Positions 7,066 through 21,365 are shown, counted from the stretch's first letter. The stretch: DNA of 32,000 nt from Pseudomonas aeruginosa (GCF_001457615.1 NZ_LN831024.1:5760001-5792000); one strand, 5' to 3'. A program made the numbers and translations. Notes: a model not told the origin generated them from the sequence alone.

Positions 7066-7521
7066 GAGGCCCCCTCGTCCGTGAACATGAATTACTGAAG
7101 ACGCCCTGACCGTTCAGGGGTCTCCGACGGCACCGGAGTGCCGGTCGAACATGGTTTCGCCACATTCGCTGCCAAACCCGATAGATAGCCAGATTTGGCG
7201 CGATCTGACAAAAAGAATGCCTGTTTCCAGTCATTCGCGTTACGTGCACCGGGCCTGGAAAACCAGGGGGCATGCCGCTCGTCGGCTAGCGACCCCAGAG
7301 GTTCCGACCCTGCCCGGGCGGAATGATTCCCGTCCATTGGGTTGCAGGACGCCCCGCCCGGCATCGGGATGCCGGCCGGCCTGTCCTGTACAGCATGAAA
7401 TCGGCGTGCGGATGATGCACCGAGGTTGTGACAAAAGGCCATGTATCTGTCACAAAAATTCACCGTTCCGGCCCCGCCATCCCTCCCTGAAGCACCTTGG
7501 GGACAATCCCCTCGACGCCGA
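7066..7521 (-). promoter_or_regulatory. Long (456 bp) opgGH upstream/leader region, also the 3' flank of dtd
   Basis: Non-coding by codon usage. Contains several hairpins: CCCTGA-ccgt-TCAGGG at 7104-7119 and CCGGCAT..ATGCCGG at 7358-7375. Also an 8-bp inverted repeat TTGTGACA-N14-TGTCACAA at 7436-7465. No promoter element could be assigned with confidence. Confidence 0.3.
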
Positions 7522-7959
7522 TCAACTCTCCAGCAGGAAGGTCACCGGCCCGTCGTTGACCAGGTGCACCTGCATGTCGGCGCCGAAACGCCCGGTCGCC
7601 ACCTGCGGATAGGCCTCCCGCGCCAGTTTCACCAGGTGCTCGAACACCGTCTCTCCTTGCGCCGGCGGCGCCGCGCTGGAGAAGCTCGGACGCAGTCCGC
7701 TGCGGGTGTTCGCCGCCAGGGTGAATTGCGAGACCAGCAGCAAGCCGCCCTGCACGTCCAGCAAGGACCGGTTCATCTTGCCCTCGTCGTCGCCGAACAC
7801 CCTGTAGTTGAGCAGCTTGTGCAGCATCTTCGCCGCGCAACGCTCGCCATCCTCGGGCTCGACCCCGACCAGCACCAGCAGGCCGCGATCGATGGAGCCG
7901 ACGATTTCGCCGCCAACCTCCACCCGAGCCGCGCCGACGCGCTGCAGCAATGCCTTCAT
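7522..7959 (-). CDS. dtd: D-aminoacyl-tRNA deacylase, 145 aa
   Basis: Typical Dtd length and motifs ([14 protein letters not shown]-terminal NDGPVT). ATGA overlap with the pip stop. Confidence 0.95.
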
Positions 7960-8927
7960 TCGGCCTCCGGCGGCAGGTCGAGCAGTCGCCGGCCGATCTC
8001 GTTGGTGGCGCGCACCAGCGCATCGACTATCCCCGGCTCGCTGGCGGTATGCCCGGCGTCGCGGATGATCTGCAGTTCGCTGTTCGGCCAGGCCTGGTGC
8101 AGGGCCCAGGCATTGTCCAGCGGACAGATGGCGTCGTAGCGGCCATGCACGATCACGCCAGGCAGATGGGCGATGCGGTGCATGTCCTCGAGCAACTGGT
8201 TGGGCCTGAGGAAGCCCTGGTTGACGAAGAAGTGGTTCTCGATGCGCGAGATCGACAGCGCCCTGCCCGGCTCGGTGAAGCGGTCCACCACCATGGGGTT
8301 GGGGCGCAGCGTGGCGGTGCGGCCCTCCCAGGTCGACCAGGCCTTGGCAGCGTGCATCTGGGCGATCTGGTCGCTACCGGTCAGGCGCTTGTGGAAGGCC
8401 GCCAGCAGGTCGCCGCGCTCTTCCGGCGGGATCGGCGCGACATAGTCTTCCCAATAGTCGGGGAACAGGCGGCTGGCGCCTTCCTGGTAGAACCAGTGGA
8501 TGTCCTGCGGACGGCAGAGGAAGATGCCGCGCAGGATCAGCGCATGGACCCGCTCGGGATGGGTCTGCGCGTAGGCCAGCGACAGGGTCGAGCCCCAGGA
8601 ACCGCCGAACAGCACCCACTTCTCGATACCCAGGTGCTCGCGCAGGCGCTCCATGTCCGCCACCAGCTCCCAGGTGCTGTTCTTCTCCAGGCTGGCGTGG
8701 GGCGTGGAACGGCCGCAACCGCGCTGGTCGAAGGTGACGATACGGTAGAGGTTGGGATCGAAGAAGCGACGCGACAGGGCATCGCAACCGGAGCCGGGGC
8801 CGCCGTGGACGAAGACGACCGGCAGTCCGTCCGGCGAACCGCTTTCGTCGGCATACAGCACATGCGGTTCGTCGACGGCCAGCTCGTGGCGAGCGTAGGG
8901 TTTAATTTCCGGATACAGAACTAGCAT
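7956..8927 (-). CDS. pip: Proline iminopeptidase (alpha/beta hydrolase), 323 aa
   Basis: The ORF track gives 7956..9203. Start set at the ATG at 8927 ([11 protein letters not shown]...). HGGPG oxyanion motif and GGSWGS nucleophile elbow. The upstream extension is Arg/Ser/Pro-rich out-of-context sequence. Confidence 0.92.
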
Positions 8928-9108
8928 GATGCGCTCCCGAGGCGATGTGTTCGGCCCCCGGCGCAAACGTCGACAGCGGGGCCCGTCCTTTGCTCTGCCG
9001 CGCATGATACTTCGGCGCCGGGAAAAAAACCGAGCGGCTTTCATGTCCGCCCCGGTAGAGGGGAAACCATCAATCCAAGCAACGGCGCCTGGCGCCGGGA
9101 GAACGAGC

Positions 9109-9585
9109 ATGGCCGAGGCCTTGCGACACCGTATCCGCGCCGCCGGCCTGCTGGTGGTGGAGCAACGCATCCTGCTGGTCCGCCACGAGGTCGGCGGCGA
9201 CATCTACTGGATTCCGCCCGGCGGCGGCTTCGAGTCGGAATGCGACGAATCGACGAAGGATACCGTCCGGCGCGAGTTTTTCGAGGAGACCGGCCTGCGG
9301 GTGGACGTCGGCCCGCTGGTCTACGTGCGCGAATTCGCCGAACCCGCCGCCGGGCGCTTCCACATGGAGCTGTTCTACCGCATCGACGCCTGGCGTGGCG
9401 AGCCGACCCTGGCCAACCTGAAGGGCCTGGGCGGCGACGAGTTCGATATCCGCGAGGTCGGCTGGATCGCCCGCGACGAACTGCCTGGCCTGCCGTCGTT
9501 CTATCCGGCCGAACTGGCCGACGACGTCTGGTCGCGCCTGGACGCGCCGACGCCGTCGATCCGCCACCTCGGCCTGCAGCGCTAG
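9109..9585 (+). CDS. NUDIX family hydrolase, 158 aa
   Basis: Near-consensus Nudix box GGGFESECDESTKDTVRREFFEETGL. Start set at the ATG at 9109, which has GGGAGA 6 nt upstream; the ORF track starts at 8926. Substrate unknown. Confidence 0.8.
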   Translation: MAEALRHRIRAAGLLVVEQRILLVRHEVGGDIYWIPPGGGFESECDESTKDTVRREFFEETGLRVDVGPLVYVREFAEPAAGRFHMELFYRIDAWRGEPTLANLKGLGGDEFDIREVGWIARDELPGLPSFYPAELADDVWSRLDAPTPSIRHLGLQR

Positions 9586-9589
9586 ACGC

Positions 9590-10489
9590 TCACTGCACCG
9601 GATCGCTGGTGGGGTTCTCGAGGATCGCCTTCAGCTCCGCGGTCATGGGAAACTCCAGGTTCAACCCCTTGGGCGGGATCGGCTGCTGGAACCAGCGCTG
9701 GTAGATGCCCTGTATCTCGCCCGAGCGATACAGCCCGGCCAGGGTCTCGTTGACCAGGGCAAGGAACTGCGGGTCGTCCTTGCGCACCATGCAGCTGTAG
9801 ATCTCCCGCGATTGCGGCTCGCCGACCACCACCCAGTCGTGCGGCTGGCGCGCCTTGGCGCGTTCGCCGTAGAGCAGCGCATCGTCCATGTAGAAGGCCA
9901 CCGCGCGACCCGATTGCAGCATCTGGAAGGCTTCGCCGTGGTCCTTGGCGCTGACCACGTTCATCCCCAGCTTGTGTTCGGCGTTGTAGTTCTTCAGGTA
10001 GCGCTCGTTGGTGGTGCCGGCGGTGGTCACCACGTTCTTGCCCTTGAGGTCGTCGAAGTGGGCGATGCCGCTGTCCTTGCGGGTCAGCAACTGGCCCTTG
10101 ACGTAGATGAAGCCGTAGGAGAACGCCACCTGTTTCTGCCGCTCGGCGGTGACCCCGGTGGAGCCGCACTCCAGGTCGACGGTGCCATTCTGCACCAGAG
10201 GGATACGGGTCTGCGAAGTGACCAGGTTGTACTTCACCTTGAGTTCCGGCTTGCCGAGGGTGCTTTTGAGCCGCTCCACCACCTTGTCGGCCAGTTCCAC
10301 CGAATAGCCCATGGGCTGGCCGCTGTTATCGCCAAGGTAGGAGAAAGGCACCGAGGCATCGCGATAACCCAGGGTTATCGTGCCGTTGTCGGCAACCTTC
10401 TTCAGGGTGCCGCTGAGTTCCTCGGCCTGCGCGGCGCCGATGGCGAGCGACAGGGAGAGTGCGAGAGTGCTGGATACAAGAATTTTCAT
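9590..10489 (-). CDS. dguC: Periplasmic amino-acid-binding protein (GltI-like), last gene of the dgu operon, 299 aa
   Basis: Signal peptide MKILVSSTLALSLSLAIGAAQA-EE and SBP family 3 features. Lies downstream of dguA-dguB as I recall for PA5082. Confidence 0.8.
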   Translation of the reverse strand: MKILVSSTLALSLSLAIGAAQAEELSGTLKKVADNGTITLGYRDASVPFSYLGDNSGQPMGYSVELADKVVERLKSTLGKPELKVKYNLVTSQTRIPLVQNGTVDLECGSTGVTAERQKQVAFSYGFIYVKGQLLTRKDSGIAHFDDLKGKNVVTTAGTTNERYLKNYNAEHKLGMNVVSAKDHGEAFQMLQSGRAVAFYMDDALLYGERAKARQPHDWVVVGEPQSREIYSCMVRKDDPQFLALVNETLAGLYRSGEIQGIYQRWFQQPIPPKGLNLEFPMTAELKAILENPTSDPVQ

Positions 10490-10531
10490 CGGAGGTTCTG
10501 CCTCTTTTTTCTTATGGCTATGGAAAGTAAG

Positions 10532-10882
10532 TCAGCCCCTGGCCGCCACCACGGTGATCTCCACCAGCACCGACGGACGCGCCAGCTCCGCCTGGACGGT
10601 GGTCCGGCTGGGCGCCTGGCCGATCGGCAACCACTGGGTCCAGACCTCGTTCAGGGCGGCGAAATCGCGGGCGATGTCCTTCAGGTAGATGGTCGCGCTG
10701 AGGATACGCTCCTTGCGCGACCCGGCCTCGGCCAGCAGCGCGTCGATCTTCGCCAGCACCTCGCGGGTCTGGCCATGGATATCCTCGGCCTGGCCCGGCA
10801 CCTGGCCGGAAAGAAATACCAGGGCGTCGAAGCAGACCGCGGCGGACAGGCGGTCGTTGGTGGCGATACGGGTCGGTTCCAT
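10532..10882 (-). CDS. dguB: RidA/YjgF/TdcF family enamine/imine deaminase, 116 aa
   Basis: The ORF track gives 10532..11308. Start set at the ATG at 10882 (MEPTRIATNDRLSAAV...), with GGAG upstream. The length and C-terminal VEITVVA motif are typical of RidA. Confidence 0.85.
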   Translation of the reverse strand: MEPTRIATNDRLSAAVCFDALVFLSGQVPGQAEDIHGQTREVLAKIDALLAEAGSRKERILSATIYLKDIARDFAALNEVWTQWLPIGQAPSRTTVQAELARPSVLVEITVVAARG

Positions 10883-10907
10883 GGGAGTGCTCCAGGTCGA
10901 GGGGAAT

Positions 10908-12158
10908 TCAGCCAGCCAGCGCGCCGCGCGGAAGCAGGCCAGAGGTATCGATGCTCGGCGGGCGGCGGCCGATCTGCTCGGCCAGCAGGCGCCCGCTGCC
11001 GCAGGCCAGGGTGAAGCCGAGCGCGCCGTGGCCGAGGTTGAGCCAGAGGTTGCGGTAGCCGCCGTTGCCCACCAGCGGTACCCCGGTGGGCGTGGCCGGG
11101 CGCATGCCGGCCCATTCGACGGCGGCGTCGAAATCGCCGCCCTGCGGGAACGTGTCCCGCGCCTGCTGGCGCAGCAGTGCCAGGCGCGCGGGCTCGAGGC
11201 CGGGGTCGAAGCCGACGATGTCGACCATCGCGGCGATCCGCAGCCGCTCGCCGATCCGCGCGTAGACGATCTTGCGGTCGTAATCGGTGATGCTGGTATC
11301 CGGCGCACGGTGCTGCGCGCCGACCGGCAGGGTCAGGCTATAGCCCTTGAGCGGGTATAGCGGCAGGCGCAGGCCCGGCAGCATCAATTCGGCGCTGCGG
11401 TAGCCGGCGGCCAGCACCACATGATCGGCCTCGATGAGATCGCCGACGACCTCGACGCCACGCACCGCCGCGCCGCCCTCGACGATCTTCGTCACCCTGC
11501 GGCCATGCAGTTGCCGGCAATGTCCGGAAGCCTGCAGGCGCTCGGCAAGTTGCACGCAGAAGGCATGGCAGTCGGCGACCTCCTCGTCCGGCGTGTGGAT
11601 GCCGCCGACGAAGGGCGCGGCGGACAGGGCCGGCTCCAGCGCGCGGCACTCGGCGGCGGTCAGGACGAATTGCGCCGAAGGATCGGCCAGACCCTGGCGG
11701 GCCCGCGCAAAGCTGGCCGGTTGGCGAAACGCCACCAGCTTGCCGTTGCGCCGCCAGTCGAAGCCATCGAGGCCATCCTCCTCGCGCCAGGCCTGCAGGG
11801 TGCGCTGGCTGAGCAATGCCAGGCGCAGCAGGTGCGCGGCATTGCGGCGGTTCAGCGAGCCGCGGCAGGCCGCGAGGAAGCCCAGCAGCCAGCGCCACTG
11901 CGCCGGATCAAGGCGCGGCCGCAGGCGCAACGGCGCATCGTTGCGCAGCAGCCAGCCGAGCGCCTGGGCCGGCACGCCGCTGTCGGCCAATGGCGCCACG
12001 TAGCGATAGGACAACTGCCCGCCATTGGCGTAGCTGGTTTCCAGCCCGCCCCGCTCGCGCGCTTCCACCAGGGTCACGTCGAATCCTTCGCGAACCAGGG
12101 CGTAGGCCGTGGCCAGGCCGACCACGCCGGCGCCGATGATGCAAACCCGCTGAGCCAT
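10908..12158 (-). CDS. dguA: FAD-dependent D-amino-acid dehydrogenase (DadA-like), 416 aa
   Basis: N-terminal dinucleotide fold VCIIGAGVVGLATAYAL and DadA/DAO family length. Divergent from a LysR regulator, matching the dguR-dguABC layout I recall. Confidence 0.85.
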   Translation of the reverse strand: MAQRVCIIGAGVVGLATAYALVREGFDVTLVEARERGGLETSYANGGQLSYRYVAPLADSGVPAQALGWLLRNDAPLRLRPRLDPAQWRWLLGFLAACRGSLNRRNAAHLLRLALLSQRTLQAWREEDGLDGFDWRRNGKLVAFRQPASFARARQGLADPSAQFVLTAAECRALEPALSAAPFVGGIHTPDEEVADCHAFCVQLAERLQASGHCRQLHGRRVTKIVEGGAAVRGVEVVGDLIEADHVVLAAGYRSAELMLPGLRLPLYPLKGYSLTLPVGAQHRAPDTSITDYDRKIVYARIGERLRIAAMVDIVGFDPGLEPARLALLRQQARDTFPQGGDFDAAVEWAGMRPATPTGVPLVGNGGYRNLWLNLGHGALGFTLACGSGRLLAEQIGRRPPSIDTSGLLPRGALAG

Positions 12159-12270
12159 GACAATCGTTATCCAGGTGTTTTCCAGGGCTTCGACGATAGG
12201 CGCGGATGACAGCGGTAGGACAATGAATAAAGATGGCCAGGGTATAAATCCAGGTTATGGGCTCGCGCCG
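12159..12270. promoter_or_regulatory. Divergent dguA/dguR control region with candidate LysR-type sites
   Basis: The octamer ATCCAGGT occurs twice, at 12169-12176 and 12248-12255. The second copy sits inside the dyad ATAA-N7-TTAT (12245-12259). Assigning it to DguR is inference only. Confidence 0.3.
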
Positions 12271-13179
12271 ATGAAGCTCCGCCATATCGAAGTGTTCCAG
12301 GCGATCCGCCAGGCTGGCTCGGTCAGCGGCGCCGCACAGTTGCTGCATGTGTCCCAGCCGGCGGTGAGCAAAGTCCTGCAGCACGCCGAGCAGCAACTGG
12401 GCTTCCCGCTGTTCTTGCGAGTGCGCGGCAAGCTGCTGGCGACTCCGGAAGCGCTGGAACTGGAGCGCGAAGTGGCCAAGCTCAGCGATAGCCTGCAGGC
12501 GGTGCGGCGCCTGGCGCAGAACCTGCGGCGCCAGCCGGGCCACAGCCTGCGCATCGGCGCCACCCCGGCCCTGGCGCTGTCGCTGCTGCCGCGGGCGATC
12601 GGCGAATGGAGCGCGCGCTATCCGCAGAGCGGCTGCGAACTGGCCACCTTGCATTCGCGCGAACTGGTGCAGGGCCTGCTGATGCGCGAACTGGACCTGG
12701 CCCTGAGCCTGAAGCAGCCGGAACACCCCGGCCTGCGCGGCGAAGCCATCGCCAGCGGCGTATTGGTGGCCCTGGCGCCGCGCGAACACTGGCCCGAAGC
12801 GGAACGCCGGCAGCCGCTGAGCCTGGCCGGGCTGGCCGGCGAAGCGCTGATCGGGCTGTCCACCGCCGACCCGCTGTTCGCCCGCCTGGAGGATTACCTC
12901 AGCGCCGTGGTGCCACCGCCGCAGGTGAAGATCGCCGTGCAGACCTACGCCCTCGCCCGCGCCCTGGTGGAGGCTGGGGCGGGCCTGGCGCTGGTCGATC
13001 CCTTCACCGCCCTCGGCGCCGACCCGCACAGCACCGCGATCCGCCCATTGAGCCCGGCCTTCCCGGTCACCCTCTACGCCATCACCCGCGCCGACGAAAC
13101 CCCGCCGCACACCCTCGCTCCGCTGCTGCGGATGCTCGCCCGCCAGGCCGAGGAGCGTTTGCGGGCCGTGCAGATGTAG
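12271..13179 (+). CDS. dguR: LysR-family transcriptional regulator, 302 aa
   Basis: N-terminal wHTH MKLRHIEVFQAIRQAGSVSGAAQLLHVSQPAVSKVLQ and a LysR substrate-binding half. Start is taken at the ATG at 12271. The ATG at 12223 or the ORF-track start at 12157 cannot be excluded. Confidence 0.85.
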   Translation: MKLRHIEVFQAIRQAGSVSGAAQLLHVSQPAVSKVLQHAEQQLGFPLFLRVRGKLLATPEALELEREVAKLSDSLQAVRRLAQNLRRQPGHSLRIGATPALALSLLPRAIGEWSARYPQSGCELATLHSRELVQGLLMRELDLALSLKQPEHPGLRGEAIASGVLVALAPREHWPEAERRQPLSLAGLAGEALIGLSTADPLFARLEDYLSAVVPPPQVKIAVQTYALARALVEAGAGLALVDPFTALGADPHSTAIRPLSPAFPVTLYAITRADETPPHTLAPLLRMLARQAEERLRAVQM

Positions 13180-13246: not shown

Positions 13247-14128
13247 TTACCGCTCCGGCTTCCAGTCTGGGCGGTCCGCGTCGTAGCCCTGGGTCGGGTG
13301 CGGTGGCAGAGGATGGTCCTTTATCAAGTCGGGAAAACGCAAATCAGGATCAGCGGCAAGTCGATCGTAAATACCATCATATAGTTTGTGCAGTTTTTCA
13401 TCGGGGACGTACCACATTGCACTTGCAGGAGGAGTCTTGTTTCCAAAGACGCGCGAGAGGAAGAAAGCCGCGCTCTTGCCCCCCTGAGAGACTGACACCT
13501 GATAGTAACCTAATGCTTTTGGGAAATTATGCTCTACTATCTTGTAATACGCCCCCAGCTCATAACTAGCCGGCGCATAGCCCTGGCTAGCAGCACAGTT
13601 AGTATACGCCAACCCCAAATCCTTTTTTTTGGCCACATATATATAAAGCTTACCTAGTTCGGTTAGCGCCGGCGGATTTCCTAGGCTAGCAGCCTTATCA
13701 AGAAAAGTAAGTCCGTCAGTTGCAGGATTCTTGACCCCGGCACGATTACCGATCATTGCCCCCATATTATAGAAACCTTGAGGAATCTTCAGATCGATCA
13801 TTTTCTGGTAAAGGTCTAGAGCTTTCTGAGTGTCCTTCTCCACACCTCCCGGCCAACCGGTACGATAGAGGTTCGCCAAGTTATGCATGGCCTTCCAGTG
13901 GCCACGCTCCACTGCCTTGCTGTAAAGCTCGACGATACGGCCCCAGGGCCGCAGAGTATCGGGCTTGGCCAAGGCGGCTGCTTCGCGGTACCAGACATCG
14001 GCTTGCGAATCCAACGGCGGCAGATGGTCTTTTTCATTAACGCAGACAAACGATTTGCTGTTGGCCATCACGGGAACGGCTGCAAGACACAGCACGGCCC
14101 AAAGTCCAATAGCCATCAGCCGCATCAT
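13247..14128 (-). CDS. Sel1-like-repeat periplasmic protein, PLD-effector immunity paralogue (array copy 1, distal), 293 aa
   Basis: Signal peptide MMRLMAIGLWAVLCLAAVPVMA-NS. Repeated Sel1-type helical motifs (GHWKAMHNLANLY, PQGFYNMGAMI, NPPALTELGKLY, YAPASYELGAYY). Lies downstream of the PLD effector, as described for Tli5b. Confidence 0.88.
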   Translation of the reverse strand: MMRLMAIGLWAVLCLAAVPVMANSKSFVCVNEKDHLPPLDSQADVWYREAAALAKPDTLRPWGRIVELYSKAVERGHWKAMHNLANLYRTGWPGGVEKDTQKALDLYQKMIDLKIPQGFYNMGAMIGNRAGVKNPATDGLTFLDKAASLGNPPALTELGKLYIYVAKKKDLGLAYTNCAASQGYAPASYELGAYYKIVEHNFPKALGYYQVSVSQGGKSAAFFLSRVFGNKTPPASAMWYVPDEKLHKLYDGIYDRLAADPDLRFPDLIKDHPLPPHPTQGYDADRPDWKPER

Positions 14129-15006
14129 TGCTCCGGTTTCCAGTCGGGCCGATCTGCGTCGTAGCCCTGGGTCGGGTGAGGAGGCAGAGGATGATCCTTT
14201 ATCAAGTTGGTAAAACGTAGATCTGGATCAACTTCAAGCTTCTTGTAAATAGAGTAATACATCTCATAAAGCTCCTTATCCGCGTCATACCACATCCTAT
14301 CAACTGGTCGACTTTTTTCATCGAATATATCTGTCATTAGAAGCGCAGCATCACCATCCCCTTGAGAAGTAGCAAGCTGGTAATAGCTCAGCGCCTTAGG
14401 ATAATTATGCTTAACTATTTTGTAATACGCACCCAATTCATAATTAGCGGGAGCATATCCTTGCTCAGCAGCGCATTGCGTGTAACGAAGTCCTAGTTCG
14501 TCCTGATTCGCTTCATAAATATAAAGCTTACCTAACGCAGTTAAGGCTGGAGGGTTACCCATACTGGCGGCCTTGTCCAAGAAGGTCAGGCCATCGGTAG
14601 CAGGATTCTTAACACCGGCACGATTGCCAATCATTGCCCCCATGTTATAGAAGCCTTGGGGCACTCCCAGATCGATCATCTTCTGGTAAAGGTCCAACGC
14701 TTTCTGCGTATCCTTCTCTACCCCACCAGGCCACCCTGTACGATAAAGATTCGCCAGGTTATGCATGGCCTTCCAGTGACCACGCTCCACTGCCTTGCTG
14801 TAAAGCTCGACGATACGGCCCCAGGGCCGTAGAGTATCTGGCTTGGCCAAGGCTGCTGCTTCGCGGTACCAAGCATCGGCTTGCGAATCCAACGGCGGCA
14901 AATGGTCTTTCTCATTAACGCAGACAAACGATTTGCTGTTGGCCATCACGGGAACGGCTGCAAGACAGAGCACGGCCCAAAGTCCAATAGCCATCAGCCG
15001 CATCAC
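14125..15006 (-). CDS. Sel1-like-repeat immunity paralogue (array copy 2), 293 aa
   Basis: Same architecture and signal peptide as copy 1. Its DNA carries many synonymous differences in the block that is near-identical in the other three copies. GTG/ATG start overlaps the stop of copy 3. Confidence 0.88.
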   Translation of the reverse strand: MMRLMAIGLWAVLCLAAVPVMANSKSFVCVNEKDHLPPLDSQADAWYREAAALAKPDTLRPWGRIVELYSKAVERGHWKAMHNLANLYRTGWPGGVEKDTQKALDLYQKMIDLGVPQGFYNMGAMIGNRAGVKNPATDGLTFLDKAASMGNPPALTALGKLYIYEANQDELGLRYTQCAAEQGYAPANYELGAYYKIVKHNYPKALSYYQLATSQGDGDAALLMTDIFDEKSRPVDRMWYDADKELYEMYYSIYKKLEVDPDLRFTNLIKDHPLPPHPTQGYDADRPDWKPEQ

Positions 15007-15884
15007 TGCTCCGGTTTCCAGTCGGGCCGATCTGCGTCGTAGCCCTGAGTGGGATGGGGTGGTAACGGATGCTCCTTCATCAGGTTGGGAAAACGTAAAT
15101 CAGGATCAGCCTCAAGCTTTTTATAGATTGAATAATATTCCTTGTGTAGTCTTTCGTCGGGGGAGTACCACATCCTGTCAACATCGGGACTAGCCTTATC
15201 AAAAACTCCGGACATGAAGAAGGCAGCATCACCATTTCCTTGACTGGCAGCAAGAAGATAATAGCTCGCCGCCTTGGGGAAGTTATGCTCTACTATCTTA
15301 TAATACGCCCCTAACTCATAATTAGCCGGTGAATAACCCTGACTGGCAGCGCAATTGGTATACGCCAAACCCAAATCTTTCTTCTTAGCTACATAAATAT
15401 AAAGCTTTCCAAGCTCAGTCAATGCCGGCGGATTTCCCAAGCTGGCGGCCTTATCCAGGAAGGTAAGTCCATCCGTTGCAGGATTCTTGACCCCGGCACG
15501 ATTACCGATCATTGCCCCCATATCATAGAAACCTTGAGGAATCTTCAGATCGATCATTTTCTGGTAAAGGTCTAGAGCTTTCTGAGTGTCCTTCTCCACA
15601 CCTCCCGGCCAACCGGTACGATAGAGGTTCGCCAAGTTATGCATGGCCTTCCAGTGGCCACGCTCCACTGCCTTGCTGTAAAGCTCGACGATACGGCCCC
15701 AGGGCCGCAGAGTATCGGGCTTAGCCAAGGCTGCTGCTTCGCGGTACCAAGCATCGGCTTGCGAATCCAACGGCGGCAGATGGCCTTTTTCATTAACGCA
15801 GACAAACGATTTGCTGTTGGCCATCACGGGACGGCTGCAAGACACAGCACGGCCCAAAAGTCCAATAGCCATCAGCCGCATCAC
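15003..15884 (-). CDS. Sel1-like-repeat immunity paralogue (array copy 3), chimeric, with an altered signal peptide, 293 aa
   Basis: The 5' two-thirds resemble copy 1 and the 3' third resembles copy 4. The signal-peptide core reads GLLGRAVSCSRPVMA because of paired indels (see findings). Confidence 0.8.
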   Translation of the reverse strand: MMRLMAIGLLGRAVSCSRPVMANSKSFVCVNEKGHLPPLDSQADAWYREAAALAKPDTLRPWGRIVELYSKAVERGHWKAMHNLANLYRTGWPGGVEKDTQKALDLYQKMIDLKIPQGFYDMGAMIGNRAGVKNPATDGLTFLDKAASLGNPPALTELGKLYIYVAKKKDLGLAYTNCAASQGYSPANYELGAYYKIVEHNFPKAASYYLLAASQGNGDAAFFMSGVFDKASPDVDRMWYSPDERLHKEYYSIYKKLEADPDLRFPNLMKEHPLPPHPTQGYDADRPDWKPEQ

Positions 15885-16756
15885 TGCTCCGGTTTCCAGT
15901 CAGGCCGATCTGCGTCGTAGCCCTGAGTGGGATGAGGTGGTAACGGATGCTCCTTCATCAGGTTGGGAAAACGTAAATCAGGATCAGCTTCAAGCTTTTT
16001 ATAGATTGAATAATATTCCTTGTGTAGTTTTTCATCGGGGGAGTACCACATTCTGTCAACATCGGGACTGGTCTTATCAAAAACTCCGGACATGAAGAGG
16101 GCAGCATCATCATTTCCTTGACTGGCAGCAAGAAGATAATATCTTGCTGCTTTTGGAAAGTTGTGTTCAACGAGTTCGTAGTAACTCCCCAACTCATAGT
16201 TTGCCGGAGCATAACCCTGACTCGCAGCACATTGGGTATATGCCAAACCCAACTCTCTGTTTTTGGCCACATAAATATAAAGCTTACCCAGTTCGGTTAG
16301 CGCCGGCGGATTTCCTAGGCTAGCAGCCTTATCAAGAAAAGTAAGACCATCAGTTGCAGGATTATTGACCCCGGCACGATTACCGATCATTGCCCCCATA
16401 TTATAGAAACCTTGAGGAATCTTCAGATCGATCATTTTCTGGTAAAGGTCTAGAGCTTTCTGAGTGTCCTTCTCCACACCTCCCGGCCAACCGGTACGAT
16501 AGAGGTTCGCCAAGTTATGCATGGCCTTCCAGTGGCCACGCTCCACTGCCTTGCTGTAAAGCTCGACGATACGGCCCCAGGGCCGCAGAGTATCGGGCTT
16601 GGCCAAGGCGGCTGCTTCGCGGTACCAAGCATCGGCTTGCGAATCCAACGGAGGAAGATGGTCTTTTTCATTAACGCAGACGAATGATTTGCTGTCGGCC
16701 ATAACGGAAACTCCGAAACTCAGCAGGAAAGTGAACAGATAAATAGAGATACGCAT
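15881..16756 (-). CDS. Sel1-like-repeat immunity paralogue (array copy 4, effector-proximal), 291 aa
   Basis: Has a different, AT-rich-encoded signal peptide, MRISIYLFTFLLSFGVSVMA-DS; the rest is the same SLR body. The ATG at 16756 is 3 nt after the PLD gene stop. Confidence 0.88.
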   Translation of the reverse strand: MRISIYLFTFLLSFGVSVMADSKSFVCVNEKDHLPPLDSQADAWYREAAALAKPDTLRPWGRIVELYSKAVERGHWKAMHNLANLYRTGWPGGVEKDTQKALDLYQKMIDLKIPQGFYNMGAMIGNRAGVNNPATDGLTFLDKAASLGNPPALTELGKLYIYVAKNRELGLAYTQCAASQGYAPANYELGSYYELVEHNFPKAARYYLLAASQGNDDAALFMSGVFDKTSPDVDRMWYSPDEKLHKEYYSIYKKLEADPDLRFPNLMKEHPLPPHPTQGYDADRPDWKPEQ

Positions 16757-16759
16757 CGC

Positions 16760-18996
16760 TCAGTCAACCGTAAAATTGGGACTATAGGGTGTGGTGACAT
16801 CCCAGAACCGCAATAAATGGGTCGTTAGAGATTCACCATTTCGCTGCTGCTTCCAGTTCTTATCCATCTTCTGATTCCACAGCTTGAAGTTTTCTTCGGT
16901 CGTTTCGGCCAACTTATAAGCATGTGCCCCCCACAACTCCTCCCGCATCGCCCTCGCCAAATCCGGATTGGGTTGGGCAATCCCCAATTCGCTGTCGCTA
17001 TGCATGCTGCGGACATTGATATTGGCCGAGCTGAGCAGGGTATAGAGGTCGTCCACCAGCAGCAGCTTGGAGTGCACGTAGATGTGCTTGTAGCGCGCCT
17101 TCAGCGGCGGCGCCCCGAGGGCGGCCTCGGCTTCGGCGGACATGCGTACTGGCGGCGGGCTGCCGGGGGCGGGGTCGCTGGTGGCCAGGGTGGCGATGAC
17201 CACCTTGAGGCCGGGCACGTCGGCGAGCTGGTAGGGCTTGTCGTCCTCGCCGGTGTTCTTCGCCAGTTCGGGAATGTCCTGCGCGCCGAGACCGCCGAGG
17301 CGTTGCTCGACTTCCGGCGTCACGCCTTTCTCTTCGAGCGCCTCGATCTTGCGTTGCAGCCGTTCGATGTTGTTTTCCTGGCCGCGCCGGACATAGGGAT
17401 CGGGGTGCGGGTTTTCCCTGAGCTGCTTCAACTGCTCGCGCTTTTCCCGCAGGTCATGCGCCAGGTCGCGCTGCACTTGCGGCATCAGCTGCTCCTGGCC
17501 CAGGCCTTTCATCATGTCGTAGGTGGTCTTCGAGGCGTCGCTGGAGTCGGGGGTGTTGGTCACGACGAACAGGTACAGGTCGCCGGGCACGCCCCGGGCC
17601 TTGCGCACCTGCGCAGTCTTCCGCAGGCGCTCGGCGAAGCCGGCATAACGGAAGTACTGGTTTTCCATGTAGACGTAGTCGGTGGCATTGCCCAGGGCCT
17701 TGAGATAGTGCTCCAGGATCGAGCGCTCGTCGTCCTGCGGCTGGGTCCGGCAAATCTGCGCGACGCTGTTGCTGGCGGGCGTGGCGATCTTCGGCAGCGG
17801 CAAGGCGTCGCGCTCGGCGGTCAGCGATGGCGTCGAGAACCAGCGCTTGTACCACGGCGTCTCGAGGTCCCAGGCCTCGCTGAAGTTGCGGCTGAGGTCG
17901 GCCAGCACCGGGCCCTGGACCTGCATGGAGATATCCTGCCAGGGCCCGAACCCGGGATCGCGACCGGCGGCGCGGTCGTCGAACAGGTGGGCGCTGGTGT
18001 CCCAGTAGTTGCGGTGCATGTTGTGACCCATGACGAAGCCGATGGCCTGCGGGCTGCCATAGTCGACCAGGACCATCTTCTGGTGATGGCTGGCGAACTG
18101 GGTGAGTACCAGCAACTGGCCGATGCCCAGGTCGTCGATGCCATCGGCGCGCAGCAGGTGGATCAGGCTTTGCAGTCGCCCATTGACGAGGCGCACTTGC
18201 TCGCCGTTCATCACCGGTCTGGCCGTCTGCTCGAAGTCGCGGGTACGGAACTCGACGTTCTGCAACCCACCGCCGCGTACCGCCTTGAACCAGTCGCGGG
18301 TGAATATCTGCCCCCAGGGATCCTGGCGGGTGCCGCCGGAACCGCGCTTGCCGCCGTAGCCCTGGGCCTCGCTGCTGTCGAGAGTGCGCTGGATCTCGGC
18401 GTTCTCCGCCTCCAGCTCGGCGATGCGCGCCCGCGCGTGGCGGCGCCCCGCGGGTCGAAGCTCGGCAGCCTGCCTTCGCGGTGCAGCCGTTCCGAGCGCT
18501 CCAGGGCTTCCTGCTGCCGCGCGATGAGGTTGAGGTTATGCTGGCGCCGCTGCTCCAGTCGCAGCACCTCGTTGTCCACCGCGCTGCCGCTGGCGACGCC
18601 CGAGCCCGCCCAGGTGCCGCCGGAACCGCCGACGCCGGCCCCGGGGATGGTGTTTTCCTTGAGCCTGGCGAGCTGGTTGCTCCAGACCAGCACCCGCGCC
18701 TGCACCCCTTCGCGGCCCTTCGTCTGCAGCAATTCGCCGATTCGCGGTCCGTCGGGGCGTTTGAAGCGCATGGCCGGGTCGAAGCCCCAGGTGATGATGT
18801 CGATGCTCTGCCGGGCCGCTTCCATCGCCGCATGCACCGCGTCGAAGGCCGCCTGGCCATTGATCAGCGGCTTGATGTGCACACCCGCGCGCGGTGGGTA
18901 GAAGGCCTTGTTGGCGAACCAGTCGAGGGTCAGCCGGACGCTGCCGGCCTGTTGCGCGTACAGCTTGAGGGTCTGCGGTTTGTACAGGTCGCTCAT
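16760..18996 (-). pseudogene. pldB: Phospholipase D superfamily T6SS effector (PldB/Tle5b-like), reading frame interrupted by an apparent 1-nt frameshift
   Basis: Two HKD motifs sit in the downstream ORF (HHQKMVLVD and HSKLLLVDD...NINVRS). The PLD N-terminus is in ORF 18211..18996, in a different frame. The span is 2237 nt, which is not a multiple of 3. Plausible protein sequence switches frame around 18425-18455. A sequencing error cannot be excluded. Confidence 0.75.
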
Positions 18997-21365
18997 GGCG
19001 TGGGGTCATCCTTGTCGGCGGCGCCGGGCCGCGAGGCGTCGCGCCGGTAGGCGTCCGGGGCGGAACGCGGCTTGTGCTGGGGCATTTCCGCCCGGTAGTC
19101 ACGGAACCCCTGCTGGGCGAGCCGATCGTCGGCCTGCAGTGCGTCCGGTTGGTCGACCATCTCCACTTCGTAGGCGTGGCCATTGGCGGTCTCGATACGA
19201 TAGGTGCGTTCGCCCGGCAGCGGTTCGAAGCTGATTGCGCCGCCTTCGTCGGCGATGCCCTCCTCCTTGAAGGCACCGTTGGCGTAGAGCCGATACGGTT
19301 GCCTGGCCGCCGATGCCACGCCGGGCAACGGACTGAGTTCGAAACGCAGGAGTTTCTGCGGCGCTTCGCCGATCTTCTGGGCGATGGCTCCCAACAAGGC
19401 GCCTCCCGCCGCCGCGGCGTCGGCCGCGAGCGGTTGCAGCGGCGACAGCGCGCGAACGCCGCTACCGATGCCGGGGCTGCCGCCGCTGTTGATCATCACC
19501 TGGGCGCCGTCGAGGGTGACACCGACCGGGTCGAGCCTGGCGAAGCTGCCACCGCCCTTTAGGGTCAGCTCCATGCCTGCCTCGATCACTACCTTGTCGC
19601 CGGCCTTGAAATGGATCTCGTCGCCCGCCTCGACGAACTGGCCGGTGCCGATCCTCAGGTGCAACGCGTCGGCGACGCTGAGGTGGTCGGCCGCCTTCAG
19701 TTCGACCTTGCGGTCGGCATGGACCGTGCGCTGTTCCTCGGCCCTGAACTCGCTGTAGCTATCACCCTCGACCGTGTCGTGGCGCTCGTGGCCGACGCGG
19801 ATCTTCTGGTCGTGCTCGATGTTCTCGTCCCAGTCGCGCTGGGCGTGGACGAAGATCTGTTCCTGGCCCTTGCGGTCCTCGATGCGCAGTTCGTTGAAAC
19901 CGCCGCCGCCGGGGTAGCTGTCGGTCTTGAAAACGCTGCGGGTCTTGTTCTGCGGCAGCTCGTAGGGCACCCGGTTTTCGCTGTGGTAGAGGCAGCCGGT
20001 GACCAGCGGCTGATCCGGATCGCCCTCCAGGAAACCCACCAGGACTTCCATGCCCACCCGCGGGATGGCGACGCCGCCATAGCGCTTGCCCGCCCAGTTG
20101 GAGGCGACGCGCAACCAGCAACTGGTGTTGTCGTCGGCCTGGCCGAGGCGATCCCAGAAGAACTGCACCTTGACCCGGCCGTATTGGTCGCAGTGGATGG
20201 TCTCGCCGGCGGGGCCGGTCACGACCGCTGTCTGACAGCCCAGCACGCGTGGCCTGGGATGCTCCAGCGGGGGGCGGAAATGCGCGCTCCAGGGAGTGGC
20301 GACGAAACGGTTGCGATAGCCCTGGCGGAAATCGCCCCGGCCCTGCGCGACGTCGCTGTCGATCGACTCTTCCAGTACCTGCGGCTGCCGCCCTTCGTGG
20401 AGAACCTCGGTAAGCAGCCAGAGATCGTTCCATTCGCCGCGGGGATGCGCGGACAGCGTCAGGAAGTGTCCGCTGAGCAGCGCCGGTTCGTCGCTTTCGC
20501 CCCTGGCCTGTAGGTAGTCGGCGCGATGCCGTTCCAGCGCGCGCCGGCTCAGGTGCTTGCCGCGCTCGCGGTGGGTGAAGCGGCCGGGATAGTCGTAGTC
20601 CTCCAGGTCCGGTTGCTGCGCCCCGGGCTGCGGGCCATGGGCGGCCTGCATCTGCAACGCGGGTTGCTCGAAGTCGTAGTCGCGCCGGGTAACCCGGCTG
20701 GCACGGGTGTCGAAGCGCACGCCGAAGCGCTTGACCACCGGCTGGTCGGCGACCAGCCCGGCGTCCTGCACGTAGGCGACGGGGCGTTGCAGCCGCGGAA
20801 AGGAGGTCTGGTCGTCGCCGAAGACCAGCATATGGCCCTGGGCAGAAAACTCATGGTGGTAATGGATGCCTTCCTCCTCGCAGAGCCTGCTGAGGAACGC
20901 CAGGTCGGTTTCGTCGTACTGCGTGCAGTATTCGCGGGCCGGGTACGGCGTCGGGCCCAGCTGGAAGCGGTAGGCGTCGGCGAGAACGCCGTGGCCCTCC
21001 AGCACCCGGCCGATGATTTCCGGCACGCTGAGGCGCTGGAAGATGCGTTGGTCGCTGCACAGCCCCAGGTAGGCCAGGCGCGGCTCCAGGGTCGCGCGAT
21101 AGCCGGTCAGGCGCTTGCCGGAGTCCCCCTGGGCGATGCTGGTGAGCTGTCCGTGGACCCCTTGCCCGCTCGGCGAGAGGATCAGGAAGGCCGGCTGGTG
21201 CAGCAGCGCGTCGAGGTCCAGATCGGATCGCTCGCTGACCAGCTCCAGGTCGAAGCGAAAGGGCTGGCTGATGGCTTCGCGACCGCGGAAGGCGAGTACC
21301 TGGAAGTCGTGCCGGAGGTTTTCGATGCGAAGGCTGAAGTGCGTCTGGTTGGCGGGGGCGAACAT
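18993..21365 (-). CDS. vgrG: T6SS spike protein VgrG with a C-terminal extension of about 158 aa, 790 aa total
   Basis: The N-terminus is typical of VgrG (FRFDLELVS, gp27-like) and is followed by a gp5-like beta-helix region (VHADRKVELKAADHLSV...). GAGGA RBS. The stop overlaps the pldB ATG (ATGA). The position matches what I recall as VgrG5/PA5090. Confidence 0.93.
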   Translation of the reverse strand: MFAPANQTHFSLRIENLRHDFQVLAFRGREAISQPFRFDLELVSERSDLDLDALLHQPAFLILSPSGQGVHGQLTSIAQGDSGKRLTGYRATLEPRLAYLGLCSDQRIFQRLSVPEIIGRVLEGHGVLADAYRFQLGPTPYPAREYCTQYDETDLAFLSRLCEEEGIHYHHEFSAQGHMLVFGDDQTSFPRLQRPVAYVQDAGLVADQPVVKRFGVRFDTRASRVTRRDYDFEQPALQMQAAHGPQPGAQQPDLEDYDYPGRFTHRERGKHLSRRALERHRADYLQARGESDEPALLSGHFLTLSAHPRGEWNDLWLLTEVLHEGRQPQVLEESIDSDVAQGRGDFRQGYRNRFVATPWSAHFRPPLEHPRPRVLGCQTAVVTGPAGETIHCDQYGRVKVQFFWDRLGQADDNTSCWLRVASNWAGKRYGGVAIPRVGMEVLVGFLEGDPDQPLVTGCLYHSENRVPYELPQNKTRSVFKTDSYPGGGGFNELRIEDRKGQEQIFVHAQRDWDENIEHDQKIRVGHERHDTVEGDSYSEFRAEEQRTVHADRKVELKAADHLSVADALHLRIGTGQFVEAGDEIHFKAGDKVVIEAGMELTLKGGGSFARLDPVGVTLDGAQVMINSGGSPGIGSGVRALSPLQPLAADAAAAGGALLGAIAQKIGEAPQKLLRFELSPLPGVASAARQPYRLYANGAFKEEGIADEGGAISFEPLPGERTYRIETANGHAYEVEMVDQPDALQADDRLAQQGFRDYRAEMPQHKPRSAPDAYRRDASRPGAADKDDPTP

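What the first reader, a model, noticed from the sequence alone, without database searches (positions are those of the whole stretch)
13247..16756. Four tandem immunity paralogues with a constant-body / variable-third mosaic
Seen in sequence:
- Four genes of 291-293 codons sit head to tail.
- Residues about 23-165 are nearly identical in all four.
- Residues about 166-265 diverge strongly. Compare VSVSQGGKSAAFFLSRVFGNKTPPASAMWYVPDEKLHKLYDGIYDRL with LATSQGDGDAALLMTDIFDEKSRPVDRMWYDADKELYEMYYSIYKKL.
- The last 25 or so residues are conserved again.
- In the conserved body, copies 1, 3 and 4 share near-identical DNA, which suggests recent gene conversion or duplication.
- Copy 2 encodes the same protein there through many synonymous changes, which suggests purifying selection.

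From memory, three immunity genes (PA5086-PA5088, Tli5b1-3) are described for PAO1. If that is right, four copies here is a copy-number variant.

Inference: the variable third may be the specificity surface. The array may hold immunities against different PldB alleles rather than simple dosage copies.
Basis: partly seen in the sequence, partly recalled or inferred. Interest (0 to 1): 0.7.

Follow-up and report, generated by a model that had tools for sequence, protein, structure and literature searches.

The report
Four-copy PldB immunity gene array
Pseudomonas aeruginosa here carries four tandem copies of the known immunity gene against its own type VI phospholipase toxin PldB; the copy number and shuffled mosaic are real but are a common variant found identically in many finished genomes.

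Summary
Four head-to-tail ORFs of 291/293 codons lie on the minus strand at exactly 878-nt spacing. They sit just downstream of vgrG5-pldB. Each is 76-95% identical to the crystallised PAO1 immunity proteins PA5086-PA5088 (Tli5b1-3, Sel1-like repeats).

Residues 23-165 are 95-98% identical among the copies. Residues 166-270 are 57-88% identical. The tail is 91-100% identical.

Three copies share identical DNA tracts of 198-263 nt (permutation p as low as 1e-4). The fourth keeps the same body protein through synonymous change (dS 0.7-1.1, dN 0.03).

This is not an assembly artefact, and it is not special to this strain. The same a-a-c-d array occurs in many complete genomes. Copy number across the species ranges from 1 to 6.

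The variable third consists of a few old modules that are shuffled between copies and strains. dS there is saturated and omega is about 0.1-0.3, so there is no sign of omega above 1. A role in specificity is plausible but untested.

Only three module types are present here, because copies A and B share one. In this window copy B has a scrambled signal peptide and pldB is frameshifted.

The parts
18993..21365 (-). vgrG5, the T6SS spike gene and first gene of the operon
   Evidence: 790-aa ORF. TIGR03361 VgrG match, E 1e-198. Same position as the 790-aa Phage_GPD gene in all related loci.
16760..18996 (-). pldB / tle5b phospholipase D effector gene, frameshifted in this window by a 1-nt deletion at about 18438-18440 (GCCGCCCAC becomes GCCGCCAC)
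   Evidence: It is split into ORFs of 261 aa and 501 aa. There is a single missing C relative to L002, L010-12 and L020. The PLDc motif is found only in the downstream ORF. The truncated product is not on record anywhere.
15881..16756 (-). tli5b copy A (291 aa): position-1 immunity gene with its own signal peptide type and variable module 'a'
   Evidence: The exact protein is in 3025 blocks of the public collection. The hydrophobic signal peptide is MRISIYLFTFLLSFGVSVMA.
15003..15884 (-). tli5b copy B (293 aa): variable module 'a' again, 88% identical to A over residues 166-270. Its signal peptide is scrambled by +1 T (15856-15859) and a private -1 C (15828-15830).
   Evidence: The exact product is not on record.
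14125..15006 (-). tli5b copy C (293 aa): same body protein encoded by a synonymously diverged DNA haplotype, and variable module 'c', which has no PAO1 counterpart
   Evidence: dS 0.72-1.07 and dN about 0.03 against the other bodies. The variable core is 43-64% identical to every other copy and to PA5086-88. The 289-aa form is in 855 blocks.
13247..14128 (-). tli5b copy D (293 aa): last-position copy with variable module 'd', closest to PA5086/6lch. It contains an A8 tract (13623-13630) and a G6 tract (13479-13484).
   Evidence: 86% identical to 6lch over residues 166-270.
16365..16627 (-). Identical-DNA tract in copy A (263 nt), shared with D 13731-13993. B 15525-15722 shares 198 nt of it.
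   Evidence: exact string identity verified.
13319..13633 (-). Variable third (codons 166-270) of copy D. The equivalent segments are C 14197-14511, B 15075-15389 and A 15953-16267. In the AlphaFold model of copy C they correspond to helices 169-181, 185-198, 202-214 and 218-228, a loop, and helix 244-259.
   Evidence: Entropy profile over 124 proteins. Identity table. Secondary structure of the model.
12223..13179 (+). Convergent LysR-family regulator gene that bounds the array (PA5085 position)
   Evidence: 318-aa product found next to the array in all P. aeruginosa loci.

Best explanation
What it is. The region is the immunity end of the P. aeruginosa vgrG5-pldB-tli5b operon. The four genes are tandem paralogues of Tli5b. 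Tli5b is the periplasmic Sel1-like-repeat protein that binds and sequesters the T6SS phospholipase D effector PldB (Tle5b).

How the array evolves (shown here).
- It is an exact 878-nt tandem repeat. It changes by unequal crossing-over, giving 1 to 6 copies among finished genomes and chimeric genes.
- It also changes by gene conversion, seen as identical tracts of 198-263 nt.
- The N-terminal body is under very strong purifying selection (omega 0.03-0.09).
- The C-terminal SLR helices (residues 166-270) exist as a small set of old, still constrained modules. These are reshuffled between copies and strains.
- This window carries the common a-a-c-d haplotype.

How it most likely works (inferred).
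- The copies are co-transcribed and translationally coupled, through ATGA/GTGA overlaps and with no internal promoter or terminator.
- Copies A, C and D are exported by Sec.
- The constant body provides the common PldB-binding scaffold.
- Having several copies supplies dose.
- With about even odds, the different C-terminal modules also widen or tune protection against PldB variants of competitors.
For: Identity:
- PDB sequence hits to PA5088, PA5087 and PA5086 at E 1e-154 to 1e-164. Foldseek top hits are the same three entries.
- Sel1 repeats by Pfam.
- Synteny with vgrG5 and pldB.

Tandem-array dynamics:
- 878-nt spacing.
- 1, 2, 3, 4, 5 and 6 copies in finished genomes.
- The single-copy gene in L016 is a chimera of a first-copy N-part and a last-copy C-part.
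- A-B-B-C-D and six-copy arrays exist.
- Identical tracts give p=1e-4.

Selection:
- Body: dN 0.009-0.034 against dS up to 1.07. Variable third: dN 0.23-0.31 with dS saturated.
- At an 85% identity threshold there are 7 module types but 1 body type among 124 proteins.

Operon: no promoter-like site on the gene strand and no terminator-like sites at all. No Rfam hit.

Breadth idea:
- The last 70 aa of PldB are hypervariable, with 4 types, dN 0.13-0.20 and dS 0.5-1.3.
- The same partition is seen in Amphritea, Neptuniibacter and an uncultured Pseudomonas.

Literature:
- Three PAO1 immunities and the 'stockpiling' hypothesis (PMC12771364).
- A 'cup-saucer' sequestration model (PMC13133936).
- Prey strains deleted for the whole pldB-tli5b123 locus are used as the PldB-susceptible prey in competition assays (PMC6684961).
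Against: - No binding or protection data exist for modules a, c or d of this haplotype.
- No PldB-Tli5b complex structure is in the PDB copy searched, so the interface is unknown.
- Omega in the variable third is below 1 wherever it can be measured.
- The variable third is also the least conserved part between orthologues of different genera. The pattern could therefore simply reflect weaker constraint.
- PldB tail type and first-copy type are less than 1 kb apart, so their association may be linkage alone.
- In this window pldB is frameshifted and copy B probably is not exported. Part of the system may therefore be decaying here.
Confidence: 0.85

Rival explanations
1. Dosage only ('stockpiling'). 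All copies neutralise the same PldB interchangeably. The variable third is a weakly constrained C-terminal cap with no effect on specificity. Copy number simply drifts through unequal crossing-over.
For: - The literature frames the three PAO1 copies as stockpiled immunities (PMC12771364, citing Wen et al. 2020).
- A finished genome manages with one copy (L016).
- The b/d module at the last position occurs with PldB tail types 1, 2 and 3.
- Omega is below 1.
- The variable third is also the least conserved region between orthologues.
Against: - The modules are old (dS saturated) yet remain intact and constrained (omega 0.1-0.3), rather than being homogenised like the body.
- The order a-a-c-d is kept across many genomes.
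- The same partition arose in arrays of distant genera.
- PldB has its own hypervariable tail next to the array.
Confidence: 0.4
2. Allele-specific immunity archive. Each variable third recognises a different PldB allele, so the array stores immunities against non-self PldB variants, as orphan immunity arrays do.
For: - There are four PldB C-terminal tail types, each seen with a distinct first-copy type.
- Module 'c' has no PAO1 counterpart.
- The PldB tail is also the most diverged segment between the closest Amphritea pair.
Against: - The association is confounded by physical linkage.
- A and B carry the same module.
- The last-copy module is shared across tail types, and a single-copy strain exists.
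- No toxin-fragment/immunity pairs of the kind seen in CDI or Rhs orphan arrays lie between the units, which are exactly 878 nt.
- There is no evidence that the PldB tail contacts the immunity protein.
Confidence: 0.3
3. Orphan or decaying array. In this strain the effector is dead (pldB frameshift) and the immunity genes are relics on their way to loss.
For: - The 1-nt deletion breaks pldB at about codon 186.
- The copy B signal peptide is scrambled.
- In other assemblies, homopolymer length variants break individual copies.
- 5 of 52 clinical isolates lack pldB but keep tli5b genes (PMC9846239).
Against: - A, C and D are intact and identical to widely distributed alleles.
- Both indels are private single-C deletions in C runs and could be sequencing errors.
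- Retained immunity genes still protect against PldB from neighbours.
Confidence: 0.15
4. Assembly artefact: a repeat expansion that created extra copies.
For: Tandem repeats of about 0.9 kb are hard for short-read assemblers to resolve.
Against: - The copies are only 76-89% identical in DNA overall and each is distinct.
- The same four-copy array is present at 99.3-99.6% identity over 10-21 kb in several complete genomes.
Confidence: 0.01

Closest known systems
Tli5b1-3 (PA5086, PA5087, PA5088) of P. aeruginosa PAO1, the immunity proteins of PldB/Tle5b (PDB 6LCH, 5JKP, 5JJO)
   Same: Same locus, same operon position and same Sel1-like-repeat fold. The body is 87-94% identical. D resembles PA5086 at the last position. 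A resembles PA5088 in its variable module (80-84%).
   Different: - Four copies here rather than three.
- The position-1 signal peptide and body haplotype differ.
- Module 'c' (copy C) is only 43-52% identical to any PAO1 copy over residues 205-262.
- The adjacent PldB carries a different C-terminal tail type, with 29 substitutions relative to the PAO1-like allele, all after residue 525.
Orphan immunity gene arrays of polymorphic toxin systems, such as V. cholerae T6SS auxiliary clusters, Bacteroidales acquired interbacterial defence islands and CDI/Rhs orphan modules (recalled from general knowledge, not tested here)
   Same: Several immunity genes sit downstream of one effector. Copy number and content vary between strains. 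The effector has a variable C-terminus.
   Different: - All units here are paralogues of one family, with a homogenised constant body.
- No toxin fragments lie between them.
- Diversity comes from shuffling modules inside a fixed scaffold rather than from acquiring unrelated immunity genes.
- Only the last 70 aa or so of the effector vary, not its catalytic domain.
vgrG-pldB-tli5b arrays of Amphritea, Neptuniibacter sp. PT1, an Oceanospirillales MAG and an uncultured Pseudomonas (loci L026-L034)
   Same: Same gene order. Tandem arrays of 1 to 6-7 SLR genes. The same within-array pattern: body identity of about 0.6-0.8 in the larger arrays and 0.86-1.0 in the two-copy arrays, about 0.4-0.7 over residues 181-270, and a tail of 0.8-1.0.
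   Different: Only 35-44% identical to the window proteins. Some copies there have lipoprotein-like N-termini. Host GC is close to that of the array, whereas in P. aeruginosa the array is about 15-18 points below the flanks.

Membership tests
Tli5b (PldB/Tle5b immunity protein, PA5086-PA5088 family) | Sequence homology to the characterised PAO1 proteins | tested here: met
   phmmer against PDB gives 5jjo 9e-164, 6lch 3e-158 and 5jkp 6e-154 over the full mature length. Foldseek top three hits are PA5086, PA5088 and PA5087.
Tli5b (PldB/Tle5b immunity protein, PA5086-PA5088 family) | Sel1-like repeat, all-alpha architecture | tested here: met
   PF08238 scores above the gathering threshold in all four copies. 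The AlphaFold model of copy C is a stack of helix pairs. Next-best folds are SLR proteins such as SEL1L, HcpC and LpnE.
Tli5b (PldB/Tle5b immunity protein, PA5086-PA5088 family) | Encoded immediately downstream of pldB, on the same strand, in the vgrG5 cluster | tested here: met
   The order is vgrG5 18993-21365, pldB 16760-18996, then A-D, with 3-nt and 4-nt junctions. The synteny is identical in 30+ P. aeruginosa loci.
Tli5b (PldB/Tle5b immunity protein, PA5086-PA5088 family) | N-terminal export signal for periplasmic location | tested here: inconclusive
   By inspection and Kyte-Doolittle score, A, C and D have an uncharged hydrophobic core followed by VMA. B has two Arg residues inside the core after a +1/-1 frameshift pair. 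No dedicated signal-peptide predictor was available.
Tli5b (PldB/Tle5b immunity protein, PA5086-PA5088 family) | Binds PldB and protects against PldB intoxication | not testable with these tools
   This needs pull-down or ITC and competition assays. No PldB-Tli5b complex is in the PDB copy searched.
Tle5b / PldB effector (the partner gene) | Intact ORF of about 745 aa with PLD (HKD) motifs | tested here: not met
   In this window the gene is split into 261-aa and 501-aa ORFs by a 1-nt deletion. The PLDc motif is detected only in the downstream ORF. Relatives encode an intact 745-aa protein.
Tandem gene array under concerted evolution (unequal crossing-over plus gene conversion) | Exact periodicity, copy-number polymorphism, chimeric units, and identical tracts between paralogues beyond chance | tested here: met
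   878-nt period. 1-6 copies. Chimeric L016 unit and block sharing. Run test p=1e-4.
Polymorphic-toxin style orphan immunity array (CDI/Rhs type) | Orphan toxin C-terminal fragments paired with unrelated immunity genes downstream of the main effector | tested here: not met
   The units abut with 4-nt overlaps and all belong to one family. No effector fragments lie between them.
Diversifying (positive) selection on the variable third | dN/dS above 1 between paralogues or alleles | tested here: not met
   Nei-Gojobori pairwise estimates give dN 0.06-0.31 with dS 0.58 to saturated, and omega 0.07-0.27 where defined. Other genera give 0.15-0.38. Site-model tests that allow for recombination were not run.

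The most novel reading that the evidence does not exclude
The hypervariable, low-GC last 70 residues or so of PldB and the shuffled C-terminal SLR modules of Tli5b may form a co-diversifying recognition pair. In that case each array is a combinatorial archive: a constant scaffold carrying swappable specificity modules. Strains would assemble it by unequal crossing-over to resist the PldB variants of competitors. The same design would have arisen repeatedly in distant gammaproteobacteria.
Probability: 0.25. Interest if true: 0.55.

Novelty: new member of a known kind. Interest (0 to 1): 0.3.

Why it matters
PldB is treated as a uniform 'core' effector with three redundant immunities, a picture based on PAO1. 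The data here show three things:
- The immunity array is a copy-number-polymorphic (1-6), recombining tandem repeat with a handful of old C-terminal modules.
- PldB itself has at least four divergent C-terminal tail types.
- The PAO1 arrangement is only one of several haplotypes.

If the modules differ in which PldB variants they neutralise, strain-to-strain T6SS compatibility in P. aeruginosa would depend on this locus.

The mosaic also matters for per-gene dN/dS or presence/absence surveys that map reads to PA5086-88. Paralogue exchange would confound them. For this particular window, however, the finding is an ordinary, widely shared haplotype of a known system.

Tried and rejected
- Assembly expansion was rejected. 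The copies are distinct, and the same array is in several complete genomes.
- Positive selection on the variable third was not supported. Pairwise dN/dS is below 1 and dS is saturated.
- Tandem Repeats Finder returned nothing because its maximum period is 500. Spacing was taken from BLAST and the repeat finder instead.
- NCBIfam has no specific Tli5b or PldB model, only weak SLR or PLD cross-hits below cut-off.
- Rfam and the promoter/terminator scans found nothing inside the array.
- The primary papers on PldB immunity could not be read because they are not held. These are Jiang 2014, Yang 2016 and Wen 2020. Statements about them come from citing papers or are marked as recalled.
- The genome-contig scan did not return the P. 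aeruginosa representative itself. It returned two short, low-coverage contigs in non-Pseudomonas assemblies (L024, L027) that look like P. aeruginosa contamination.
- My first anchor-based array extraction failed for loci with a different pldB 3' end. That failure led to the finding that the pldB tail is hypervariable.
- My tblastn-based module table left many units untyped ('?') because of a strict full-length criterion. Only the typed units were used.
- A complex prediction (PldB tail plus Tli5b) could not be run with the tools available.
Full report
**1. What is there**

The minus strand between 13247 and 16756 carries four ORFs:
- A, 15881-16756, 291 aa.
- B, 15003-15884, 293 aa.
- C, 14125-15006, 293 aa.
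- D, 13247-14128, 293 aa.

Each stop overlaps the next start by 4 nt. Both repeat finder and BLAST of the conserved core give start-to-start spacings of exactly 878, 878, 878 nt.

Upstream on the same strand lie vgrG5 (18993-21365; TIGR03361, E 1e-198) and pldB (16760-18996). Downstream lies a convergent LysR gene (12223-13179). On the gene strand the scans find no promoter-like site, and on either strand no terminator-like site. No Rfam family matches. This fits one operon with translational coupling, which is an inference.

The array has 49-52% G+C (GC3 0.48-0.56), against about 67% in the flanks.

**2. Check of the observation**

The protein alignment and region table give these pairwise identities:
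- Body, residues 23-165: 95-98%.
- Variable third, residues 166-270: 57-88%. Residues 205-262 are 43-91%.
- Tail, residues 271-293: 91-100%.

At the DNA level:
- A and D are identical over 263 nt.
- B is identical to both over 198 nt.
- Shuffling the mismatches of each pair over the polymorphic sites reaches such runs with p=1e-4 for A-D and B-D, and p=0.025 for A-B.

A and B share the same variable module (88% identity over residues 166-270). Three module types are therefore present, not four.

**3. Identity**

- All four copies hit the Pfam Sel1 repeat above its threshold.
- They match three PDB entries over the full mature length at E 1e-154 to 1e-164.
- The PDB descriptions and a paper supplement name those entries: PA5088 (5JJO), PA5087 (5JKP) and PA5086 (6LCH), i.e. 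Tli5b3, Tli5b2 and Tli5b1.
- An AlphaFold model of copy C (mean pLDDT 73.5) is a stack of helix pairs. Its best Foldseek hits are the same three structures.
- In PAO1-like loci (L015, L017) the order after pldB is 5jjo-type, 5jkp-type, 6lch-type.

The literature held here says the following:
- The three PAO1 proteins are the immunities of PldB/Tle5b (PMC6099711, PMC4899435, PMC10281587).
- They contain Sel1-like repeats and are thought to sequester PldB by a 'cup-saucer' interface outside the catalytic pocket (PMC13133936).
- Prey strains deleted for the whole pldB-tli5b123 locus serve as the PldB-susceptible prey in VgrG5/H2-T6SS-dependent competition assays (PMC6684961).
- Multi-copy immunity is discussed as 'stockpiling' (PMC12771364).

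**4. Not an artefact, and not unusual**

- The window aligns end to end with complete genomes carrying the same four units. Examples are CP073082.1 (L002) at 99.3% over 10 kb, and CP015650.1 (L010), L011, L012 and L020 at 99.3-99.6% over 17-21 kb.
- L037, L039 and L046 (CP012001.1) have variable modules identical to A, B, C and D.
- The exact product of copy A is listed in 3025 blocks of the public collection. The 289-aa form of copy C is in 855 blocks.
- Array sizes in finished genomes are as follows:

| Copies | Examples |
|---|---|
| 1 | L016, CP041785.1 |
| 2 | L001, L003-5, L008 |
| 3 | L014, L015, L018, L022 |
| 4 | many |
| 5 | L042, A-B-B-C-D |
| 6 | L038 |

**5. How the mosaic arises**

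Blocks are shared between different positions and different strains. The single gene of L016 joins a first-copy N-part to a last-copy C-part. That is the expected product of unequal crossing-over.

Among 124 P. aeruginosa proteins, an 85% threshold gives 7 types for residues 205-262 but only one type for the body. Several of the 7 are visibly recombinants of three sub-blocks. A database search returned 392 clusters at 90% identity, and the best 120 are all from P. aeruginosa. Per-site entropy reproduces the constant-body/variable-third/constant-tail profile at population level.

**6. Selection**

| Region | dN | dS | omega |
|---|---|---|---|
| Body | 0.009-0.034 | up to 1.07 | 0.03-0.09 |
| Variable third | 0.06 (A-B), 0.23-0.31 (other pairs) | 0.6 (A-B) to saturated | 0.07-0.27 where defined |

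The modules are therefore old and still constrained. They are not recent products of positive selection. Recombination-aware site tests were not run.

In the model of copy C, the variable third covers helices 169-181, 185-198, 202-214 and 218-228, a low-confidence loop, and helix 244-259. The invariant Pro-rich tail (271-293) is predicted to be disordered.

**7. Evidence on the specificity idea**

For:
- PldB is not uniform. There are 16 alleles in 22 loci, 94.5-100% identical.
- 27 of the 64 variable positions lie in the last 70 residues. There, dN is 0.13-0.20 and dS 0.5-1.3, while the first 500 codons have dS 0-0.07.
- G+C falls to 0.46-0.49 in the last 150 nt of pldB. The divergent low-GC block therefore starts inside the effector gene.
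- Four tail types were seen, each with a different first-copy type.
- Distant relatives have the same gene order, with 1 to 6-7 tandem copies: Amphritea, Neptuniibacter sp. PT1, an Oceanospirillales MAG and an uncultured Pseudomonas.
- They also show the same within-array pattern. In the two two-copy arrays (L029, L026) body identity is 0.86-1.0 and the tail is 1.0. In the five-copy comparisons (L030, L032) the body is about 0.5-0.76 and the tail 0.77-0.91. Residues 181-270 are 0.38-0.70 throughout. For the pairs measured (L029, L026, L030), body dN is 0.015-0.064 at dS 0.27-1.85.
- In the closest Amphritea pair, the PldB tail is again the most diverged segment.

Against:
- Tail and first copy are less than 1 kb apart, so linkage alone could explain their association.
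- The b/d module at the last position occurs with three tail types, and one strain has a single copy.
- The variable third is also the least conserved part between orthologues, as expected from weaker constraint alone.
- No PldB-Tli5b complex has been solved.

I put roughly even odds on the modules affecting the spectrum or affinity of protection. I put about 0.3 on strict allele-specific immunity.

**8. Peculiarities of this window**

Against its nearest relatives, the window has only two private indels in 17-21 kb. Both are single-C deletions in C runs.
- One breaks pldB at about codon 186 (window about 18438-18440). It leaves ORFs of 261 and 501 aa.
- The other (15828-15830) lies 30 nt downstream of a +1 T (15856-15859). 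That +1 T is shared with L010-12 and L020, judging by the alignment and indel comparison. The same 273-aa gene call and 879-nt spacing suggest it is also shared with L039, L042, L045 and L046.
- In those relatives the +1 T frameshifts copy B, so it is called from Met21 without a signal peptide. Here the pair of indels restores the frame. The signal peptide, however, becomes MMRLMAIGLLGRAVSCSRPVMA, with two Arg residues in the hydrophobic core.
- Neither product is on record elsewhere, so I cannot tell real mutations from sequencing errors.

If the mutations are real, this strain keeps three exportable immunities (A, C, D) but has lost the effector. That state resembles the 5 of 52 clinical isolates reported to lack pldB while retaining tli5b genes (PMC9846239).

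**9. Verdict**

This is a real, correctly described feature of a known system. It is the Tli5b immunity array of the vgrG5-pldB operon, in a common four-copy haplotype. The haplotype includes one module type (c) that PAO1 lacks.

The array evolves by unequal crossing-over and gene conversion. Purifying selection is strong on the body, and a small set of old C-terminal modules persists.

The copy number and mosaic are not novel at the sequence-database level. I did not, however, find them described in the literature I could search.

The open question of real interest is whether the modules and the hypervariable PldB tail form a specificity pair. That question needs experiments.

Noticed in passing
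window about 18438-18440 (pldB, minus strand): pldB carries a private 1-nt deletion in a C run (GCCGCCCAC becomes GCCGCCAC). It splits the 745-aa effector gene into ORFs of 261 and 501 aa. The truncated product is not on record in the public collection. This is either a real pseudogene or a sequencing error.
   Followed up: partly
window 15828-15830 and 15856-15859 (5' end of copy B): A +1 T also seen in related four- and five-copy genomes frameshifts copy B's signal peptide there. This window adds a private -1 C 30 nt downstream. That restores the frame but leaves a signal peptide with two Arg residues in its hydrophobic core, so copy B is probably not exported.
   Followed up: partly
window 13623-13630 (A8 on the gene strand) and 13479-13484 (G6), inside copy D: These are homopolymer tracts inside the coding sequence. 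In other assemblies the same tracts have length variants (A9 in L009 unit 4, A7 in L022 unit 1, G8 in L006 unit 2) that break the frame of single copies. This could be slipped-strand on/off switching or sequencing error.
   Followed up: partly
window 16760 to about 17000 (3' end of pldB); compare L011, L014, L015, L018: The last 70 codons or so of pldB are hypervariable among P. aeruginosa strains. There are at least 4 tail types, with dN 0.13-0.20 and dS 0.5-1.3, while the first 500 codons have dS 0-0.07. G+C drops to 0.46-0.49 there. The divergent low-GC block therefore begins inside the effector gene, not at the immunity genes.
   Followed up: yes
window 13247-16756 against the flanks: The array has 49-52% G+C and GC3 of 0.48-0.56, in a genome region of about 67% G+C. 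The related vgrG-pldB-tli5b loci fetched from Amphritea and Neptuniibacter are 44-52% G+C overall. This hints at a foreign origin or ongoing exchange.
   Followed up: partly
L030 (Neptuniibacter sp. PT1, AP025763.1) 7001-12239; L032 6878-12406; L029; L026: Distant gammaproteobacteria carry the same vgrG-pldB-tandem SLR immunity layout, with 2 to 6-7 copies. The within-array pattern is the same: constant body, variable residues 181-270, constant tail. Some copies there have lipoprotein-like N-termini (for example MNLVKLLYLGVITMTLCACNSES).
   Followed up: partly
window residues 271-293 of each copy (for example D 13247-13318): The Pro-rich C-terminal tail HPLPPHPTQGYDADRPDWKPE is almost invariant in all paralogues and strains, yet AlphaFold predicts it to be disordered (pLDDT below 50). 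A conserved disordered tail suggests a binding or anchoring motif of unknown role.
   Followed up: no
L024 (Ramlibacter sp. WS9, 710-nt contig) and L027 (Mesorhizobium caraganae, 424-nt contig): These are very short, low-coverage contigs in non-Pseudomonas assemblies. They encode 85-89% identical Tli5b fragments, so they are most likely P. aeruginosa contamination of those assemblies.
   Followed up: no
PMC12771364, Table S2 and Figure S3: The published medians for per-gene dN/dS of the tli5b genes disagree between the paper's own tables. For tli5b3 they are 0.093-0.110 in one place and 0.14-1.29 in another. The paralogue mosaic documented here could confound such read- or ORF-assignment-based estimates.
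   Followed up: no
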